This document shows positions 296-42,592 of a DNA stretch of 49,169 bases, piece by piece. The DNA is taken from NCBI GenBank assembly GCA_000934665.2, contig JYFJ02004234.1, positions 1-49,169 of the forward strand, read 5' to 3'. Position 1 is the first letter of the stretch. The number at the start of each line of letters is the position of its first letter. Source of the stretch: Catajapyx aquilonaris. Taxonomy: Eukaryota. The notes under the pieces were generated by a model, which worked only from the letters and a program-made list of their open reading frames with translations, ran no database searches and was not told where the DNA came from. The translations under genes and the position numbers were made by a program.

Positions 296-2906
296 CCATA
301 TCATGACCCGAATTGTTCAGTTGGTTTTCCTTCTGTTCTTATATTCAGTGATGAGGAATCATACAAGTCAATCTAGGACTTAAGACAGTCATGTTTTATA
401 TTGTAATGTTTTCATTCACACACGCGTATTGCTGACGTGAATCACTCCCTATTTGCTTTAAAATGCATTTTCAAATGAAAATAGTTGGAAAAAAGAGGCA
501 GGGAAAAAGTCAATGAAGACACAGGGAAGACACAGAGAAATTGTATTTTAGTCATTGCTGGTCACCCTGATAACGGGCAATAGCTGACCTGCGATTTTGA
601 GGGGGGGTGGGGGGAGGACCTAGGGGGTTATGTAGGGGGAGAGATGATGTGTGAAAAAATGCAAGGTATAGCTTATCTAATATCAAGACAGTGAGCTTAT
701 CTGAACAAGTGCAAGGTCATATCCTGCCCCCTCTTTTTAACTGGACCCATGTGTCCTGCTGTAATAAAATTCCAGGATGCTCACGTGGCCTTGGGAGGCC
801 TTTTCTGGAGAATATATTCTGAATCACTTGATTATAATATGTCGCCTTTATTCGCATATATTTATTTTGCACTTTTGCGGAATTGGTGCACGTTTTCCAG
901 CAGGTTCATCACAAGACTTCGACCAAGACAACATGTCAGAATGCCAGTGCCACGCAAGAATAAAGGTCTCAGCATGGGCAACAAATGCGGCACACTGTTG
1001 ACGCGCAGTTTACACTGACTAGGCCATTGTGCACTGCTGTGTACCAAGATGGCGGTGGTAGGGTAGGAAATGACGTCACTCGTTTACCCAAGCAACTAAT
1101 TTAAACACCCATCAACAATCACTCCAGGTTAATATAACCCTCATCGTTTATTATTGCAATGGATCACTTCCAACTGGTTGCTGAGATAAACAATGCAGCA
1201 AAACTCATCTACTTCCCCTGCCTCTTTATCATCGTCAACATGGGACTTAGCCAATGCACCCCTCGTCAGCATTCATTCCTGCAGCAATGGCGTCAACCAC
1301 TGTAACAATGCATGATGATGCGTTTCATGTAGCTTGTGGGGATTATAGTGTGCTGCCTACTCTATGAGCGACATACAGCAATATTGCAAGTTGCCCGTGA
1401 AACTGGAAAAAAGCTGCATTAAAATTTTGGCTAGTTGCACTTAATTTATTTGCCAAAATTATTTCATGCTGATAAAGACACATTGAGGGGGGCAGCTTTC
1501 CCCCTCCCCCCTGTTCCGGCATTGTTGCATGGGGATGTTAAAACTCGACACCTGGCTAGTTTAAAAGAGGGGGCAATATGCCTTGTATTCACACATCTCT
1601 CTCCCATCCGGCCATCACCCCCCAAATCCTCCCTCCCACCCAACTTCGCGGCCAGGTCATCTGGGGCAGGCTCATTTCACCACCTCCCTCCCTCCCACCT
1701 CACCCAATTACCCCCACCTGGTCAATCGCCCAGGTCACGTGATGAACCGTATGTTGATACTGTTATCAATGGCCACCACTCCCTGTTGTGACACTCGCAG
1801 TGCCTCTTGCGGTACCAGGACTAACAGCCCAACTAACCTAGAATTCAAAAACCGCCAGACGACAATCTTTTATACTCTGATTGTACACCTTGCAAGGGAC
1901 TGTCAGTAAGGTGTTGGTTCTTAGCTTTTGGCAGGTCTCCTGGAGTTTACCCAGTAAAACTAATTGCATGTAATTGGCTATGGATTAGTCATTAGACATG
2001 AGTGAACAAATTGGGATGAAATTCTAAGTACTTCACACCGTGTTTATTTCTTAGCAAGGTAGTACGTACATACTGTATGTTAGACTCAAACCCCGAAAAC
2101 TGCCATTGGGCGAAAAAAAAAAAAACACCAGACCTAAAACAGCCACAGCTAGTTCTGGTCGTTCCTACTTATTAATATACCTATGAATATGGAGGTGATG
2201 GGTTGATTTGTATTGGTGTGGCTGTGGAGCTTCAAGGTGACCGCACCAGCACTGCCCTTTGTTGTGGCCCTGCCAGGCACGGTCTGTCGCATTGCCAGAG
2301 GATTTTAGTTAGTTGTGAGCATAGCAAGCTGAGGTCTTCCTGTGGGTTGTGTATCCGCCCAACAATACTGACCATCTTTGTGCACTGCAGGTCAACGGAC
2401 ATTATTGTGGCACTGGAATGTGCTTGGCAAAGCCACAATAACATTTGTTCAGTGGTGGGCACAGCTAACCGAAAACTTAGCTTCGCTAACAGCTAATCCA
2501 CTAACTGAAGGCCTTGACTAAATCACAAACTCTAAACTGCTCGAAACTTCAGTGTAAGCTACCGCTAACCACTAGTGCTGACTTTTATTAGATGAATTAT
2601 TTGGCCTTTTTTTGGCTCTACGACCCTTTAAGAAATAAAAAACAGACCTAGAGTACTAAAGCCTAGAGAGCACTGCTACACATATGCCTTATTTATTTAT
2701 GTACTGTTCCGTAAAAAGTCATATTTAACAAATCCAAAAAGCAAAAAAACAAAAAATATTGCCAAAGGTTTTACATCAGTGCTTCGCAATTATTCTCTTT
2801 GGCTACCCCAAAAAATAGTCTCGTCAAATTCGCGACCCCCAGACATGCACATTTTGATCCCTCAAGATGGAAAGACAGGTAAACAGTGAAATTGAAATCT
2901 TCTATA

Positions 2907-3557
2907 CAGGGTGTTCATGAAAAACACCGACAAACCTATACCACCCCCTACCTAGGCACCAGAGGATCACATTATGTAGAGGAGTGATTATGCCTGGACC
3001 GCCTCATTACTGCGCAAATTGCCTTTAAGCAGGTAGTATAAAATATCGTGGAAGTTAGGCCACCCAACAAACTCTACCGCAGTCAGAAGGCTCTGGGAGA
3101 TCTGGGGGGCGGACTTTGTTGGTTTCTTGCCCACAGGTAGGAAGGCCTCTATGAGTACGTTTACAAGGGACTAAAAATCGGCCTAGCCTATGCTAGGCGA
3201 ACCGGTTTACTCCCATGTAGCCGCTGGGCCTACGATAGACCGGCCTTATCTGATCCGTTGTCGGGCGCAGCCCAAGGCTTTTGGGTCGGGTGGTCTACCT
3301 AAGGCGATGGCCTTGCTAAGGAAGCCTGGGTCAGGCCGATTTTTAGTCCCATGTAAATGTACTCTATGGCTAGTTATACCTGCAAATTCTATTTAAAAGT
3401 CAGAAGGAGCGATTAGGCAAAAATCGCTGAAGAGCAGGTGGGTCAATATCTCAGTAAGGAGGCGGTCTAGACATAATGACTCCTCTACATAAAGTGATCC
3501 TCTGGTGCCTACGTAGGTGGTGGTATAGGTTTGTCGGTGTTTTTCATGAACACCCTG
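2907..3557. mobile_element. Tc1/mariner-type MITE with TA TSD
   Basis: ~105-bp TIRs starting CAGGGTGTTCATGAAAAACACCGACAAACCTATACCACC and ending ...GTCGGTGTTTTTCATGAACACCCTG. TA at 2905-2906 and 3558-3559. Confidence 0.9.
3153..3364. mobile_element. PIF/Harbinger-type MITE with 3-bp TSD, innermost layer of the stack
   Basis: TIR GAGTACGTTTACAAGGGACTAAAAATCGGCCT / AGGCCGATTTTTAGTCCCATGTAAATGTACTC. TAT on both sides (3150-3152, 3365-3367). Confidence 0.8.
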
Positions 3558-4711
3558 TATAAATAAAGCCTTTGTGAGTCTGTCTGTCTGTCCGCCTGCC
3601 AACCGTCATTTGCCTGCCATCTATGCTCCACCCCCAGGCTGGGAGAGGATGGAGGTGTTGGGGGTTGACTACAGATGGCAGGCAAATGACGGTTGCCGTT
3701 ATACAGGCGGGAGAGGTTCAAGGTGTTGGAGTAGCAGGACCACAGATGGCATTGGTGGGCAGACACACAGAAAGATAGACAGTTGACGGGGGTACTGGCA
3801 GGTGTTTTCCCTTCATTCCTTTCTTCCCGGGCAACGCTGGGTGCCGCAGCTAGTCATTGATAACTCTTGTCAAGTATTTGAACTGTTCTGTAAGCTAACT
3901 TAACTTCTCATAATATCGATATATTCAGAGATAAATTCACTTTGTATGCGACTTTCTTTCTGAAATATCCCTTGTTCTTACAATTTTCCCTTTCTCCCTT
4001 TTACCCAAATTTCCCTCGAAATTTCCCAATGCCGAGGGAAATCTCCCTTCATCTACCACTGCTTTCTGTAGCCACCAAAAGACTGCCCCCCACACCCAAT
4101 CACTTTGGACTTCGCCCCCTGTGTTTAACACTTTAACCGGCTTACCTCAGAGGAAAAGCACAGACATTTTTTTGGTGCATCGCCAGTGGGTGGGAACTGG
4201 GAAGCGGAAGGTGGTCTGCATACCACCCTCCGACCTGGATGCTCAGACCATGCCCGTTGCACCTTGAACTCCTCGACCCATAACCTCTCTAATTTGATCC
4301 CTGCCTGGAGCGCCAAGTGGGAAGTGGACAATGCTGCTCCAAAATAACACAGGAACATGAATGAATTTTGTTAGGGGACAAACACTTTGCAGCACGAACC
4401 TTAGCGGAAGCTAATCGGTCCGCTAACTCTTAGCGGATTAGCGGCACTAATGCCCACCACTGCATTTGTTGCCCTGCGGCGGCAGAAGATGTTGGGCAGA
4501 TACACAACCCACAATAAGTGCTACGCTCGCAACTAGCTAAAATTATCCGGCAATACAATGGACCGTGCCTGGCAGAGCCACCACAAACAACAGGCCTGGT
4601 GCAGTCACTTCAAATCTCCACAGCCACACCATTGCCTCCATATCCTAAGCAGGAACTACCAGACCTAGTCCTGGCTGGTTTGAAAATGACCAGACCTAGG
4701 TCAGGTCGTTC

Positions 4712-4749
<38 letters not shown>
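4712..4749. repeat. (CT)n microsatellite
   Basis: Read directly; followed by an N at 4750. Confidence 0.95.
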
Positions 4750-4928
4750 NCCTACTGTATGTATGGCAATAGGGGTTTGTCCCTTGAATTGACTAGCAGG
4801 CAAGCTTTTTTGCCTGCAGAACATGACTGTTGGCATCTAGCAATGCCCCTGCCTGCTGCAACTGGCCTTCTCAAGGCATTGATTGCAAGTGATTTGTTAA
4901 ATTGTTTTTTTTGTCAATAATTATCCAG

Positions 4929-5257
4929 GTTGAGTACCATGTTCTGCAAGAGGAGCACCAAAGTGGTGGGAAAGCTACAGCCAAAATGGAAATAGAGATG
5001 GAGTTATTGAGGAAGCGAAATCAAGACCTGGAGAAAGCTCTGGAGGAGTCTCAAGAAGAAGGGAGAAGATGGGCACAAAAAGTCCAAGAGCTGCAGGGAA
5101 GGATCGATTCTCTGGAGGCACAGAGAGCACTGGCAAGTGGGGGATGGAACCGAAGGAAGTCAGGAAGCCTGAGCAGGGATTCTAGTCTGGATGGAGCTAA
5201 CGTTGATAGCGACGATTCTGACATCGTTGGATTAGTGCATGTGCCAAACCGAAGAAG
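4929..5257 (+). CDS. TBC1D1: Late coding exon of a TBC1D1/TBC1D4 (AS160, pollux-like) Rab GTPase-activating protein; C-terminal coiled coil
   Basis: Acceptor TTATCCAG|G at 4928/4929 (phase 0) and donor AG|GTTGGT at 5257/5258. Translation starts VEYHVLQEE, the motif I recall following the TBC domain in TBC1D1/TBC1D4 (..AYEVEYHVLQEE..). It continues with a heptad-rich helix (ELLRKRNQDLEKALEESQEE...IDSLEAQ). Upstream exons were not found in the window, and TBC1D1 versus TBC1D4 cannot be resolved. Confidence 0.82.
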
Positions 5258-5529
5258 GTTGGTACTATTAGGTGCAGTGAATAAATAACAAGCCATATTT
5301 ATTGTGGGAAAACTATGGGACAGGCAATAACACCGATTGGCAGGGATAACCTTCAAACCTTTTAAGAGAATTATGCCCATGTGCATGTTCGGCTAGAGGG
5401 AGCAGGCTTCGCATCACGTGATCAAAAGGGAAGCAACCCACTGAAAGTCTATCCAGTCAATTAAAAATGGGCTGAAGGCTATTTCAATGTAACTTTTAAC
5501 TTTTTTCAAATGTATTGCCAGTGATGATT

Positions 5530-5678
5530 TGTATCAACAGTCCAAAAAGAATTGTCCCTCGCGTCGAGCGGGCAGCCACGCGTCAGGATGAAAGCAACCA
5601 GTTAACTGGTTCCTTTCATCCTGACGCGTGGCTGCCCGCTCGACGCGACGGGACAATTCTTTTTGGAGTGTTGATACA
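5530..5678. mobile_element. Loop-less palindromic MITE-like element in an intron
   Basis: TGTATCAACAGTCCAAAAAGAATTGTCCC...AACCAGTT|AACTGGTT...GGGACAATTCTTTTTGGAGTGTTGATACA. ~74-bp arms with a few mismatches, centred at 5603/5604. Confidence 0.8.
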
Positions 5679-6341
5679 TTGATCCCACTGAGACACTAGG
5701 CCTACAATTTTAATTTTTAATTTTTAAATTTACATTGGCCCTTTTGGGGAACCTATTTGATTTTCAGGCTTTACCTGAATGAACCTTTTTACGATTCTAA
5801 CCTAGATTCAATCCCCTGACTAGGCCTACAATGGTCTGCTCATAGAAGTCCTTGGGTTGTTGCTGGAACCACATCTGCAACCCCTCCTCCACTTCATCAT
5901 CCGTCTGGAATCTACCTCGGCGCAAAGCTTTCTTCAGTTCATTAAAAACGTGAAAGGCACAGGGGAACGGATCAGTGCTGTAGTGTGGGGATGGCAGAGG
6001 ACTTCCACTTCATTTTATGCACAAGATCTGTGATGAAATTTGCAGTATGGGGGCAGGAGTTATCATGGGATTCTCGCATGCAGGGATTGCGCTTGGATGG
6101 TGCTTTCGGCGGGTCGCTTCCTTTTCGATCACATGATGCGACACCTGCTCCCTCGAGCTGTGCGCATGCGCATAATTTTAAGGTTTGAAGGTTATCCTTG
6201 CCAATCTGTGTCATTGCCTGCCCCACAGGTTTCTCACAATAAATACGGCTTGTTATTTATTGACTGCACCTAATACATTGAAGTACCAAATGTTTGTGAT
6301 AGTGAATATGATGACTGATATATTCCTCTTGTATTTCACAG

Positions 6342-14200: not shown

Positions 14201-14837
14201 TATTGCCCCACGCAGACCTTATCTACGCAACTATCGCACTACTAGGCCTGCTCCTAACTAGCTACTCATGTCTTTCGCGTTGAGAAATTTGCCCACCTAA
14301 TGGATATGGACTGATGCACAGGTTGCCAAATGTGTGCACAGGTCACTTGATTTATGAGGGTGTGGTGGACCCCACCCTAGTATGATTTAGTTTTTTTTTT
14401 TAATCATTCGGAAGCCAGTTTTGCATGATGAGCATTGCAGCCCTTGGGGACTTGTATACACGAATGAAGAGTTAACCTAATGTACTGTACAGTACATTAG
14501 CAATTCAGGTTAGCCATCATCAAGCATTTTTCTGACTCAATCTCCTGTAAGCCTTGGCGTGATTGATTGTGAACGCTTGAACCCATATCACATAAAGCTC
14601 TGTTATGTCGCTTTGGCCAGATGGAAATGATGGAAAAGGGGAAGTGACAAGCTGAGAGTCAATCAATCAATGGAGGCGCGGCCACAAATCGCCTAGCACT
14701 CAACCTGTGCACTGACAGCTTCTTCTGTATGCCCGCCAAAATACGTCACAGGTGAGACCACTAAGGGTGTCGCCTCACCTTTGACACCCACAACAAGTAC
14801 CGTACTACAGTAGAACCCAGATTATCCATCACCCACC

Positions 14838-14981
14838 TCCCCCCGATGGTATCTCCACCTTATCGTGGTGGTGGGGTTTGCGTTTCTCCCGTGACCCCAA
14901 GAGCTATGCCGGCGGTAGCTTCGTCTACTGGTAGGGCCACCCAAGCCGGACAGGTCTGGGGACAGACTAAGAGAGATGCCA
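14838..14981 (+). ncRNA. Putative HDV-like self-cleaving ribozyme (Pr77-like)
   Basis: Manual fold. P1: 5' C-run (14838-14844) with GGTGG(GG) from 14870. P2: TGGTATCTC (14847-14855) with GAGATGCCA (14973-14981). P3/L3 core: CCACCTTATCGTGGT. P1.1: ACC (14857-14859) with GGT (14875-14877). Long P4. J4/2: GACTAAG, with the candidate catalytic C at 14967. Confidence 0.6.
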
Positions 14982-15099
14982 GTCTTTCCTCTCTTCTTTT
15001 TCCTCTTCGTTTCTCTCTCCATCTGTCCCACCTTTGCTTCTTCTTACAGCCAGATAGCCATAGTTGCTTTGGCTTCTTCCGAATAAACCAAACCAAACC
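14838..15099 (+). mobile_element. Short non-autonomous non-LTR retroelement (Ingi/Vingi- or RTE-related, bipartite) with 9-bp TSD
   Basis: TSD TCACCCACC at 14829-14837 and 15100-15108. 3' tail GAATAAACCAAACCAAACC. The 5' part carries CCACCTTATCGTGGTGG and AGCTATGCC..TAGGGCCACCCAAG..GGACAGGTC, motifs I associate with RTE/Ingi 5' UTRs. No tRNA-like A/B boxes. Confidence 0.8.
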
Positions 15100-15752
15100 T
15101 CACCCACCGGACTGGGGAACTGTCGGATAACCTAAAAGGTCGGATAATCCGAGGAGCAAGAAAACCTAAATGAAATACAACAAAAACATATACCGTAAAA
15201 ACATGAAATAATGTACAATATCTCACGGTTATAAGCAATCGAGTAGTATTTACCTTTTACATACACACGCACTGCACTGTATTTACAATTTAACTAAGGC
15301 AATACAAATCAAATGCGTAGAACGTTGCAGTATTTGATGAGAAAACATGGATTTATTGCTGGGGCGGTACTGTCGGATAATCGGGGTTCTACTTTGTATA
15401 TTTTTAGGCGCAGGGTGTTGCTGCAACAATCAAGCACCGAGGATTAGTGGTCAATCTGCCCCTTGGAAGCCTATTGCGGCTGTAAATCCTGTTATTTTTT
15501 TAAATTTTTTTGCCGAACCCGGTAGAGAAAGGTGGATGACTTGTGGGCCCTGTGGGCATTGCTGGGATCATAAGTGCAGGGGCAGGCTTTTAATTTACAT
15601 CCTTCACTTCTTCATCTGATAACCCCTTGATTACTGTATGAAGAAGAGAAAAGCGTGGGATGAAATGATGCTGCTCCCAGACTCAATTGCCAATTGATGC
15701 AGGTTTTTTAAGGTTCAAATCGACCGCCAGTCCGCCACTATCAGCATTCATA

Positions 15753-35374: not shown

Positions 35375-35453
35375 TCTCTGGATTCTCTGCGTATTCGCGT
35401 AAGGTTACTCTCTGGATTCTCTGCGTATTCGCGTAAGGTTACTCTCTGGATTC
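35375..35453 (+). repeat. 34-bp exact tandem repeat, 2.3 copies
   Basis: Unit TCTCTGGATTCTCTGCGTATTCGCGTAAGGTTAC at 35375-35408 and 35409-35442, plus a partial third copy. Confidence 0.9.

Positions 35454-37391: not shown

Positions 37392-37440
<49 letters not shown>
37392..37440. repeat. (CT)n microsatellite
   Basis: Read directly. Confidence 0.95.
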
Positions 37441-42274: not shown

Positions 42275-42523
42275 CTAAAGTCTAAACTACTGAGGCATGT
42301 TTGGTTGTTTTTTTTGTGGAGTATTTTTTGTGCTCCTGAAAGGACCAAAATCGTTCAGAAGTAATACGAATTATGTTGCTATGACATGTATGTGCAGGAA
42401 GGCGGTTCCAATCACAGGAAAAGCTAGAAGAATATTTGGTAACATATACTGTGCAAGTGGAAACGGGCTGTAATCAACGAAGCAAGTATCATTTGCTCTG
42501 GACTGTACCAGTCCAGCGCAAAT

Positions 42524-42530
42524 AATAATA

Positions 42531-42592
<62 letters not shown>

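What the first reader, a model, noticed from the sequence alone, without database searches (positions are those of the whole stretch)
14838..15099. 262-bp retroelement whose 5' end appears to be an HDV-like self-cleaving ribozyme, with no tRNA head
Seen: an exact 9-bp TSD (TCACCCACC) bounds a short element with an (AAACC)n tail and no Pol III boxes. Its first ~145 nt can be folded by hand into a nested double pseudoknot. P2 is TGGTATCTC/GAGATGCCA (9 bp), P1 pairs the 5' C-run with GGTGG(GG), P1.1 is ACC/GGT, and J4/2 GACTAAG sits just before P2'. The predicted cleavage site coincides with the TSD-defined first base. Established: trypanosomatid ingi/L1Tc elements begin with the Pr77 HDV-like ribozyme, and RTE-clade elements carry similar 5' ribozymes. 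From memory ingi starts CCCTGGCGATGCCGGCCACCTCAACGTGGTGCCAGGG; this element reads TCCCCCCGATGGTATCTCCACCTTATCGTGGTGGTGGGG. Inference: a non-coding retroelement family that cuts itself out of host read-through transcripts and borrows an Ingi/Vingi/RTE-type enzyme. The ~85-nt P4 insert may be a further structured domain. P1 has one mismatch in this copy, so activity may be reduced.
Basis: partly seen in the sequence, partly recalled or inferred. Interest (0 to 1): 0.82.

Follow-up and report, generated by a model that had tools for sequence, protein, structure and literature searches.

The report
Ribozyme-headed short retroelement in an insect
This is one copy of a very abundant short jumping element whose front end looks like a hepatitis-delta-type self-cutting RNA instead of the usual tRNA-like promoter; such elements are known, so it is a new member of a known kind.

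Summary
Window 14838-15099 (+) is a 262-bp insertion with an exact 9-bp target-site duplication and an (AAACC)3 tail.

- **Abundance.** Public contigs pile up on exactly this stretch. Summed depth is about 26 in the flanks and up to about 1e5 inside, with 1331 contigs in one run.
- **Conserved head.** The first ~120 nt are also highly repeated in two other sources, one of them a termite gut metagenome. The 3' half is not.
- **Constant 5' end.** Four metagenome contigs carry a related head that starts at the same first base behind four unrelated flanks.
- **Likeness to HDV.** Element positions 9-32 are 20/24 identical, at the same offset from the first base, to an Rfam-confirmed antigenomic HDV ribozyme. 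The best other 24-mer in the window scores 16/24. J4/2 with its C (14967), the L3 U and G, a 9-bp P2 and a 7-bp P1 are all in place.
- **P1 pairing.** P1 differs between families but stays paired.

Against: no Rfam HDV model matches. P1 carries a family-wide C×U mismatch, P1.1 is weak, and +1 is C/U rather than G. Cleavage is untested and no partner LINE was found.

Verdict: a non-autonomous non-LTR retroelement with an HDV-like ribozyme head, analogous to NARTc/L1Tc and R2 SIDEs. Interest is moderate.

The parts
14829..14837 (+). Left copy of the 9-bp target-site duplication (TCACCCACC)
   Evidence: Read directly. Identical to 15100-15108. The bases outside both copies differ.
14838..15099 (+). 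The whole 262-bp non-autonomous retroelement
   Evidence: Summed depth of public contigs rises from about 26 in the flanks to 1e4-1e5 exactly between these bounds. It is the only copy in the window.
14838..14844 (+). P1 5' strand (TCCCCCC); the predicted cleavage site lies 5' of 14838
   Evidence: Pairs with 14870-76, 6 of 7 positions. Relatives L001, L002, L004 and L006 begin at this same base behind unrelated flanks.
14847..14855 (+). P2 5' strand (TGGTATCTC)
   Evidence: Pairs with 14973-81 in the unconstrained minimum-energy fold. Invariant in A1.
14857..14869 (+). P3 (ACC with GGT) enclosing the 7-nt L3 (TTATCGT), with U at L3 position 1 and G at position 6
   Evidence: Same letters at the same positions as the antigenomic HDV ribozyme of L037. 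Invariant in all 5 aligned heads.
14870..14876 (+). P1 3' strand (GGTGGGG), directly following P3
   Evidence: Relatives carry GAGGGGG, which is complementary to their own 5' strand.
14877..14966 (+). J1/4 (TTT) and a long P4 domain of about 85 nt with a conserved distal hairpin
   Evidence: The constrained fold closes P4 at 14882-85 with 14963-66. 14878-14957 is also covered by contigs of two other sources.
14967..14972 (+). J4/2 (CTAAGA); C14967 is the candidate catalytic cytosine
   Evidence: CTAAG is identical to J4/2 of the antigenomic HDV ribozyme of L037.
14973..14981 (+). P2 3' strand (GAGATGCCA)
   Evidence: At 14978 the family majority is A, which gives 9 Watson-Crick pairs.
14982..15047 (+). 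CT-rich body, specific to the window's organism
   Evidence: Covered in the two runs of organism A only; zero depth in the other two runs.
15048..15074 (+). 3' stem-loop, the candidate recognition site for the partner reverse transcriptase
   Evidence: Minimum-energy and centroid fold. 16 contigs in X1 match the element only from 15048 onward (loose ends).
15085..15099 (+). (AAACC)3 tail
   Evidence: Read directly. Loose ends behind 15089 and 15099 show variable tails and then unrelated flanks.
15100..15108 (+). Right copy of the target-site duplication
   Evidence: Read directly.

Best explanation
The element is one young copy of a high-copy, non-coding, non-LTR (LINE-dependent) retroelement family of an insect, probably of the termite/cockroach lineage.

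Its first ~144 nt form an HDV-like nested double-pseudoknot ribozyme: P1 7 bp, P2 9 bp, P3 3 bp, L3 7 nt, a long P4, and J4/2 with C14967.

**Inferred mechanism**
1. The element has no Pol III head, so it is transcribed as part of longer host or neighbouring-element transcripts.
2. The ribozyme cuts 5' of base 14838 and frees an RNA with a fixed 5' end.
3. The 3' stem-loop plus (AAACC)n tail is bound in trans by the reverse transcriptase of an unidentified partner LINE.
4. Target-primed reverse transcription makes a full-length copy flanked by a 9-bp duplication.

**Shown:** the insertion anatomy, the abundance, the constant 5' end, the HDV-like sequence and pairing, and the cross-species conservation of the head.

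**Inferred:** read-through transcription, actual self-cleavage, and the trans-acting LINE.
For: 1. **Insertion.** Exact 9-bp TSD and microsatellite tail.
2. **Family size.** 1331 contigs at 80% likeness or more were laid in run X1. By identity class: 290 at 99%+, 398 at 95-99%, 373 at 90-95%, 270 under 90%. Summed depth is 26.1 in 14750-14797 against up to 107,952.8 inside. The tool warns that this is not a copy number.
3. **Constant 5' end.** Loose ends with low agreement (0.39-0.44) lie just before 14839 in 17 (X1), 45 (X7) and 40 (X9) contigs, and before 14838 in 14 (X7). Of the 10 loci from the metagenome scan, 4 are relatives; all 4 start at the base equal to 14838 behind 4 unrelated flanks.
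4. **Head conserved across sources.** X7 (another organism) and X9 (termite gut metagenome) cover only 14838-14957, peaking at 14846-14877 with depth 1.1e5 in X7.
5. **Likeness to a confirmed ribozyme.** L037 holds both HDV ribozymes by Rfam RF00094, at 106.2 and 63.7 bits. Element positions 9-32 match its antigenomic ribozyme at 20/24 with the same offset from the first base. J4/2 CTAAG is identical. The P1 strands share 1/7 and 0/7 letters yet stay complementary. The best other 24-mer among about 98,000 in the window is 16/24.
6. **P1 pairing across families.** On A1, 27 of 28 P1 cells pair. Pair 6-34 changes on both sides (C-G to U-A), and pairs 1-39 and 3-37 change on one side and stay paired. 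Overall pairing is 97.5%, against 55-77.5% when the partners are slid. Loose-end consensus in X9 (12 and 11 contigs) implies 5' strands ending CCCCACC or CCCCACT, which would pair fully with GGTGGGG (inference).
7. **P2.** Perfect 9 bp in the family majority, and present in the unconstrained fold.
8. **No Pol III head.**
9. **Precedent.**
   - HDV-like ribozymes cut at the 5' end of R4, Dong, L1Tc, RTE and baggins elements (PMC3774820, sections 12 and 15-19 read).
   - NARTc shares the L1Tc ribozyme and cleaves in vitro (PMC3185411, passages).
   - L1Tc starts with C (same paper, primer in Methods).
Against: - **Rfam.** No Rfam HDV-type model matches, even at E<=10 on the 149-nt ribozyme stretch alone. 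The long P4 may explain this, but that was not tested.
- **P1 mismatch.** P1 has an internal C x U mismatch (14842 x 14872) that appears to be the family majority in all 4 runs. PMC3774820 section 12 says such mismatches are uncommon and have been linked to lost or weak in-vitro cleavage.
- **P1.1.** At best one A-U pair (14862 with 14877) instead of two G-C pairs.
- **+1 base.** It is C or U paired with G, not the G.U wobble of HDV.
- **P2', J4/2 and P3.** P2' and J4/2 were seen only in the window's organism. The contigs of the other sources and all 4 metagenome relatives stop before them, so P2 has conservation but no covariation. P3 never varies.
- **Weak statistics.** The pair-count shuffle control is weak, 132 of 500 shuffles as high, because there are only 4 distinct sequences in 2 groups.
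- **Fold energy.** It is not unusual: z -0.77, and 46 of 200 shuffles fold as well. The calculation ignores pseudoknots.
- **No partner.** None of the 48 translated frames I scanned carries a Pfam family.
Confidence: 0.8

Rival explanations
1. The head descends from an HDV-like ribozyme but no longer cleaves, or cleaves poorly, in this family. The fixed 5' end would then be set by something else, such as an internal Pol II promoter overlapping the ribozyme (as Pr77 overlaps L1TcRz), or simply inherited from a master copy.
For: - The C x U mismatch in the middle of P1 is family-wide.
- P1.1 is weak and the G.U at +1 is missing.
- PMC3774820 section 12 links P1 mismatches to lost in-vitro activity.
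- PMC3383444 (abstract) describes one 77-nt stretch acting as both promoter and ribozyme.
Against: - Many contigs are 99% or more alike (290 of 1331), and the TSD and tail are intact. This points to recent activity with this very P1.
- The core, including L3 U/G and J4/2 C, is invariant across families and sources.
- The C-run allows a slipped 6-bp P1 with a bulged U.
- I did not see the initiator or DPE motifs of insect LINE promoters at the 5' end. That was by eye against motifs recalled from memory, and no scan was run.
Confidence: 0.13
2. It is an ordinary Pol III SINE (tRNA-, 5S-, 7SL- or snRNA-headed), and the HDV-like fold is a chance resemblance.
For: - Its size, TSD, microsatellite tail and high copy number fit a SINE.
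- Earlier notes say the same genome holds tRNA- and U2-headed SINEs (unchecked).
- A loose HDV descriptor finds 8 other places in the window.
Against: - No tRNA by ARAGORN.
- No small-RNA family in Rfam at E<=10.
- The 20/24 in-register identity to a confirmed HDV ribozyme compares with a background maximum of 16/24.
- The strict descriptor hits only here, and in 5 of 200 shuffles.
- P1 changes in a compensating way between families.
Confidence: 0.03
3. It is an endogenous fragment of a delta-like circular RNA agent rather than a retrotransposon module.
For: The core is closer to the antigenomic HDV ribozyme than expected by chance. A delta-like agent has been reported from a termite (PMC7936874, abstract and passages).
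Against: - The TSD, the tail and more than a thousand laid contigs are retrotransposon features.
- At 262 bp there is no room for a delta-antigen gene.
- The termite delta-like agent carries hammerhead ribozymes and no HDV-type ribozyme (PMC7936874, passages).
- R2 ribozymes are reported to converge on the HDV active-site sequence (PMC3774820, section 19).
Confidence: 0.01

Closest known systems
NARTc / RIME with L1Tc / ingi (trypanosomatid non-autonomous elements sharing the L1TcRz HDV-like ribozyme head)
   Same: - A short non-coding non-LTR element with an HDV-like ribozyme occupying its first bases.
- Cleavage at element base 1.
- C at +1.
- Dispersed insertions.

Source: PMC3185411 passages, PMC3383444 abstract.
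   Different: - The host is an insect, not a kinetoplastid.
- The ribozyme is about 144 nt with an 85-nt P4, against 77 nt.
- The tail is (AAACC)n rather than poly(A) (poly(A) is recalled, not checked here).
- No sequence comparison was possible, because no L1Tc sequence was available from a tool.
- The autonomous partner is unknown here.
R2 SIDEs and R2/R1 hybrid SIDEs of Drosophila
   Same: Non-autonomous insect elements made of an HDV-like ribozyme head joined to a LINE 3' end and mobilised in trans (PMC3414825 abstract). The R2 consensus active site is nearly that of antigenomic HDV (PMC3774820, Figure 6 legend), as it is here.
   Different: - SIDEs sit at fixed rDNA sites and are rare.
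- This family is dispersed. Flanks differ between copies, and it is very abundant.
- Whether this head derives from R2, R4, RTE or another clade is not known. The supplement with termite R2 ribozyme sequences could not be read.
HDV antigenomic ribozyme (Rfam RF00094)
   Same: - The same order of helices.
- 20/24 identical letters in J1/2-P2-P3-L3-P3' at the same offset.
- The same J4/2 CTAAG.
- L3 U and G at the positions of the trans U23.G28 pair (PMC3386971 abstract).
   Different: - The P1 sequence is wholly different (1/7 and 0/7).
- +1 is C/U rather than G.
- P1.1 is weak.
- P4 is about three times longer.
- It is not found by the Rfam model.
- It is genomic DNA of a retroelement, not a viral RNA.
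HDV-like ribozymes at the 5' ends of RTE, baggins, R4 and Dong LINEs
   Same: A ribozyme at the 5' terminus that releases the element from a co-transcript (PMC6765202 and PMC3774820 passages). One termite genome is reported to be 16% BovB/RTE (PMC4348803 passages).
   Different: Those are autonomous elements with ORFs. The primary paper (Ruminski 2011) is not held, so I could not compare sequences or check what it says about SINEs.

Membership tests
HDV-like self-cleaving ribozymes | Nested double pseudoknot in the order P1-J1/2-P2-P3-L3-P3'-P1'-(P1.1)-P4-J4/2-P2' | tested here: met
   All segments lie in that order at 14838-14981. The strict descriptor hits only here.
HDV-like self-cleaving ribozymes | P1 of about 7 bp starting at the cleavage site, with its 3' strand directly after P3 | tested here: met
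   7 positions, 6 of them paired in the window and 7 of 7 paired in the relatives. One pair changes on both sides. The internal C x U mismatch is family-wide.
HDV-like self-cleaving ribozymes | Catalytic cytosine at the start of J4/2, just before P2' | tested here: met
   C14967 in CTAAGA, identical to J4/2 CTAAG of L037's antigenomic ribozyme. Its catalytic role was not tested.
HDV-like self-cleaving ribozymes | Conserved U and G in L3 (trans U.G pair) | tested here: met
   U at 14860 and G at 14865, the same positions as in L037. Invariant in A1. The feature is as described in the PMC3386971 abstract and PMC3774820 section 12.
HDV-like self-cleaving ribozymes | P1.1 mini-helix between L3 and J1/4 (two pairs in HDV) | tested here: inconclusive
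   Only A14862-U14877 can form; the next position is U x U (by eye). PMC3774820 section 16 reports variable J1/4, and its Figure 6 legend notes disrupted P1.1 in some R2 ribozymes.
HDV-like self-cleaving ribozymes | G.U wobble closing P1 at the cleavage site (+1 G) | tested here: not met
   +1 is U in the window and C in the relatives, paired with G. The active L1TcRz also starts with C (PMC3185411, primer in Methods).
HDV-like self-cleaving ribozymes | Match to a curated covariance model (Rfam HDV-type families) | tested here: not met
   No HDV-type family at gathering score or at E<=10. The same library finds both ribozymes in L037.
HDV-like self-cleaving ribozymes | Mg2+-dependent self-cleavage giving a 5'-OH product | not testable with these tools
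   Needs a transcription and cleavage assay.
SINE in the strict sense (Pol III head, body, LINE-related tail) | Head derived from tRNA, 5S, 7SL or snRNA with a Pol III promoter | tested here: not met
   ARAGORN finds none. Rfam finds none at E<=10.
SINE in the strict sense (Pol III head, body, LINE-related tail) | Short, non-coding, TSD-flanked, high copy number, microsatellite or A-rich tail | tested here: met
   The 121-aa open frame across the element has no Pfam family.
Ribozyme-headed non-autonomous non-LTR elements (NARTc, R2 SIDE type) | Head and/or 3' end shared with an autonomous LINE that supplies the reverse transcriptase | not tested
   No LINE in the window and no genome held. One lead only: 16 contigs in X1 share just the last ~52 nt.

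The most novel reading that the evidence does not exclude
The HDV-like head may be the long-lived, exchangeable 'head module' of a whole superfamily of SINE-like elements in termites and their relatives. The same ~120-nt ribozyme head is kept across species while bodies and tails are swapped. These elements would reach very high copy numbers with no Pol III promoter at all, living on read-through transcription plus self-cleavage. A conserved internal P1 mismatch might hint at regulated or protein-assisted cleavage. Current SINE definitions and SINE-finding tools would systematically miss this class.
Probability: 0.4. Interest if true: 0.62.

Novelty: new member of a known kind. Interest (0 to 1): 0.5.

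Why it matters
- **A candidate ribozyme.** It adds a very abundant, apparently recently active insect family to the short list of non-autonomous retroelements that replace a promoter-bearing head with a self-cleaving ribozyme.
- **Annotation.** Pol III-based SINE finders and Rfam would both miss such repeats. Part of the 'unknown' repeat fraction of termite-type genomes may be of this kind.
- **Ribozyme biology.** The family offers natural sequence variation in P1: three versions, one with a conserved mismatch. It also carries an unusually large P4 on an otherwise HDV-antigenomic-like core. Both would be useful for studying what the fold tolerates.
- **Limits.** It does not open a new principle. 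Ribozyme-headed LINEs and their short parasites have been in print since 2010-2012.

Tried and rejected
- **Whole genome.** Not held, so no genome-wide consensus, copy census or partner search was possible.
- **Other copies in the window.** None.
- **Earlier findings by sequence.** 0 look-alike windows. By words: 0.
- **Sequencing runs.** No RNA holder listed. This says nothing about expression.
- **Read laying.**
  - Parts without cover in X7 and X9 beyond 14957 are not evidence of absence. The window copy lacks about 12 nt there relative to its own family, and most contigs are short.
  - The X7 loose-end consensus behind 14956 (6 contigs, agreement 0.65) shows no recognisable J4/2-P2'. I could not interpret it.
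- **Metagenome scan.** 6 of the 10 loci share only the 19-mer and were dropped. All 4 true relatives end 61-93 nt into the element, so P2' could not be seen in them. No second metagenome scan was allowed.
- **Genome contigs and viral contigs with a 24-mer.** 0 hits each.
- **Searching the records behind L001, L002, L004 and L006.** Not held.
- **Rfam.** No HDV family. The weak matches listed (snoZ178, mir-641, BLV_package, Manganese and others, E 3-10) are chance.
- **Loose structural descriptor.** Unspecific, with 8 other places made of G.U-rich or low-complexity matches.
- **Fold energy.** Not distinctive for the ribozyme stretch (z -0.77) or the 3' part (z -0.75).
- **Pfam.** I translated 48 of the 67 stop-to-stop frames of 90 aa or more listed. 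All 48 had 0 families, so there is no reverse transcriptase in the window among the frames tested.
- **Flank repeat.** No second copy in the window.
- **Papers.**
  - No paper prints a 15-mer of the head.
  - No paper holds AAACC together with non-LTR and tail.
  - Ruminski 2011 is not held.
  - The supplement of PMC3774820 with termite R2 ribozyme sequences is not readable. It may bear on the origin of the head.
  - Known termite SINEs (the Talua group) are described as tRNA-derived (PMC4348803 and PMC5804259 passages). I could not compare sequences.
Full report
**What is in the sequence**

Window 14838-15099 (+) is bounded by an exact 9-bp direct repeat, TCACCCACC, at 14829-14837 and 15100-15108. 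It ends in three AAACC units at 15085-15099. It is the only copy in the 49-kb window. The window has 2 N, few long open frames and a G+C content of 38-48%. This fits non-coding DNA of a eukaryote. No whole genome is held for it.

**It is a repeated mobile element with sharp ends**

I laid public contigs of four runs on 14750-15200 at 80% likeness or more.

| Run | Source | Contigs laid | Region covered |
|---|---|---|---|
| X1 | organism A | 1331 | whole element |
| X5 | organism A | 67 | whole element, thinly at the 5' end |
| X7 | organism B | 341 | 14838-14957 only |
| X9 | termite gut metagenome | 239 | 14838-14957 only |

- In X1 the summed depth is 26.1 in 14750-14797 and between about 2e4 and 1.08e5 inside the element. 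The tool warns that this is not a copy number.
- By identity class the 1331 X1 contigs split into 290 at 99%+, 398 at 95-99%, 373 at 90-95% and 270 under 90%. A good share of the family is therefore young.
- Loose ends with low agreement, meaning unrelated flanks, lie just before 14839 (17 contigs in X1, 45 in X7, 40 in X9) and before 14838 (14 in X7). On the other side they lie behind 15089 (22 contigs) and 15099 (21 contigs) in X1.
- The family bounds therefore equal the TSD-defined bounds. Only the first base seems to differ between copies.
- The immediate flanks (14798-14829 and 15102-15165) have depth 900-6000. Several X1 contigs join 14833-14836 to 15109-15135, skipping the element. The element thus sits inside another, less abundant repeat, of which copies without the insertion exist.

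**The head is conserved across sources, the rest is not**

- X7 and X9 cover only 14838-14957, with a peak at 14846-14877 (1.1e5 in X7, 2.2e4 in X9). They show nothing from 14958 on.
- This missing cover is not evidence of absence. The window copy lacks about 12 nt at 14957-14961 relative to its own family (loose ends in X1 and X5), and most contigs are short.
- An exact-pattern scan of metagenome contigs gave 10 loci. Six share only the 19-mer and were dropped.
- The other four (L001, L002, L004, L006) carry a related head. All four begin the likeness at the base equal to 14838, behind four unrelated flanks. All four contigs end 61-93 nt into the element.

**The head looks like an HDV-type ribozyme**

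A scan of viral contigs with a 15-mer brought in L037, part of a 1682-base record. Rfam RF00094 finds both HDV ribozymes in it, at 106.2 and 63.7 bits.

Counting from the first base of each RNA, the comparison with the antigenomic ribozyme of L037 runs as follows:
- Element positions 9-32 (J1/2, P2 5' strand, P3, L3, P3') are 20/24 identical.
- The J4/2 motif CTAAG is identical and is followed by the P2 3' strand.
- The two P1 strands share only 1/7 and 0/7 letters, yet remain complementary to each other.

As a background, among all 24-mers of both strands of the window the next best match to that core is 16/24, once. L001 gives 19/24 at the same offset.

The helices in window coordinates:

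| Part | Coordinates | Note |
|---|---|---|
| P1 | 14838-44 with 14870-76 | 7 positions, one C x U mismatch |
| P2 | 14847-55 with 14973-81 | 9 bp, one G.U in this copy |
| P3 | 14857-59 with 14867-69 | 3 bp |
| L3 | 14860-66 | 7 nt; U at position 1 and G at position 6 |
| P4 | about 14880-14966 | long domain |
| J4/2 | 14967-72 | candidate catalytic C at 14967 |

- The L3 U and G are the pair described for the antigenomic ribozyme (PMC3386971, abstract).
- P2 and P3 appear in the unconstrained minimum-energy fold.
- With the P1 strands held single, P4 closes next to J4/2.

**Evidence for pairing beyond this copy**

- At 14978 the majority letter in X1 is A (34408.8 of 46249.2 depth, 44 contigs). 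The family P2 is therefore nine Watson-Crick pairs.
- On the alignment of the window with the four relatives (A1), 27 of 28 P1 cells pair.
- Pair 6-34 changes on both sides (C-G to U-A). Pairs 1-39 and 3-37 change on one side and stay paired. Pair 5-35 is C-G in the relatives and C x U in the window.
- Sliding the partners drops pairing from 97.5% to 55-77.5%. The shuffle control is weak (132 of 500 as high), because there are only four distinct sequences in two groups.
- Two loose-end consensus strings in X9 (12 and 11 contigs, agreement 0.53 and 0.59) end in CCCCA before 14843 and in CCCCACT before 14845. If their 3' strand is the majority GGTGGGG, these subfamilies have a fully paired P1 with A-U at 5-35. 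This is an inference from consensus strings, not from read sequences.
- P3 and the P2 5' strand never vary, which says nothing either way.

**Is it more than chance?**

- A loose structural descriptor was unspecific: 8 other places, G.U-rich or low-complexity.
- At the element's own stringency, which is post hoc, the descriptor hits only this place. It hit once in 5 of 200 dinucleotide shuffles of the window, both strands, mean 0.025.
- The stronger arguments are three. The sequence identity to a confirmed ribozyme is in register. The predicted cleavage site coincides with the independently defined 5' end. The conservation is limited to the head.

**What speaks against**

- No HDV-type Rfam family matches at the gathering score or at E<=10, even on the 149-nt stretch alone. 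The three-fold longer P4 is a likely reason, but I did not test this.
- The C x U mismatch in P1 is not a defect of this copy. No variant of 10% or more is listed in 14838-14880 in any run (5 rows were not shown). Most X7 and X9 contigs match from 14839 on, so they share the C-run.
- PMC3774820 (section 12) states that P1 mismatches are uncommon and have been linked to absent or weak in-vitro cleavage. Section 16 of the same paper says about a quarter of R2 ribozymes have 1-2 mismatches at the top of P1.
- Because the 5' strand is a C-run, a slipped 6-bp P1 with a bulged U is also possible.
- P1.1 can form only one A-U pair.
- +1 is C or U rather than G. The active L1Tc ribozyme also starts with C (PMC3185411, primer in Methods).

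**What it is not**

- *Not a Pol III SINE.* There is no tRNA and no small-RNA family.
- *Not coding.* The 121-aa open frame across it has no Pfam family. Nor does any other of the 48 frames I scanned, out of 67 listed.
- *Not an endogenous delta-like agent.* It has a TSD, a tail and more than a thousand laid contigs. The delta-like agent reported from a termite carries hammerheads and no HDV-type ribozyme (PMC7936874, abstract and passages).

**How it most likely works**

- *Shown:* the insertion anatomy, the abundance, the fixed 5' end, and the HDV-like head conserved across sources.
- *Inferred:* the element has no promoter of its own and is transcribed within longer transcripts. The ribozyme cuts 5' of base 1. 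The 3' stem-loop (15048-15074) and the (AAACC)n tail are bound by the reverse transcriptase of a partner LINE. Target-primed reverse transcription then yields the 9-bp duplication.
- *A lead to the partner:* 16 X1 contigs match the element only from 15048 on. Another repeat therefore shares just the last ~52 nt.
- The clade of the partner is open. Ribozyme heads are in print for R2, R4/Dong, RTE, baggins and L1Tc (PMC3774820; PMC6765202). One termite genome is reported as 16% BovB/RTE and another as holding 109,498 SINE copies (PMC4348803, passages).

**Comparison and novelty**

- The closest analogues in function are NARTc with L1Tc, and the R2 SIDEs of Drosophila (PMC3185411; PMC3383444; PMC3414825).
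- A review states that some non-autonomous SINEs use HDV-like ribozymes (PMC6765202, passages). The primary paper it cites is not held.
- The strong likeness of the core to antigenomic HDV is itself known for R2 ribozymes and is ascribed to convergence (PMC3774820, section 19).
- I therefore file this as a new member of a known kind. It has some points of interest: very high abundance, head-only conservation across termite-type sources, three natural P1 versions, and a large P4.
- Searches for a printed 15-mer of the head and for the tail motif with non-LTR found no paper. Known termite SINEs are described as tRNA-derived (PMC4348803; PMC5804259).

**Earlier notes of this scan**

Earlier notes on the same genome describe tRNA- and U2-headed SINEs and call it an arthropod with cockroach-like relatives. 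They gave context only and were not checked here.

Noticed in passing
window 14798-14837 and 15100-15165: The element is inserted in another, moderately repeated sequence: depth is 900-6000 against 26 for single-copy flanks. Several contigs of run X1 join 14833-14836 to 15109-15135 without the element, so these are paralogous 'empty' copies. The flanks hold an inverted 8-mer, GATTATCC at 14820-27 and GGATAATC at about 15141-48, which suggests a small DNA-transposon-like host repeat. There is no second copy in the window.
   Followed up: partly
window 14957-14961: Relative to most family members in the same organism, this copy lacks about 12 nt at the 3' base of P4 (loose-end consensus in X1 and X5). 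The depth dip at 14942-14973 reflects this indel heterogeneity.
   Followed up: no
window 14907-14929; L001 6056-6078: The distal hairpin of P4 is kept between the window family and the metagenome relatives. One stem position differs on one side only (A-T in L001, G.T in the window, L002 and L004), and the loops differ in length (by eye). It may be a protein-binding or stabilising domain.
   Followed up: no
window 35375-35453: A perfect 34-bp tandem repeat, 2.3 copies.
   Followed up: no
window 42521-42592, 37392-37440, 4712-4749: Long simple repeats: (AAT)24, (TC)24.5 and (CT)19.5.
   Followed up: no
L003, L007, L008, L010 (metagenome contigs): Four marine or other metagenome contigs share a near-identical stretch of 180 nt or more around the chance 19-mer match. 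This is evidently one conserved prokaryote-type gene, unrelated to the finding.
   Followed up: no
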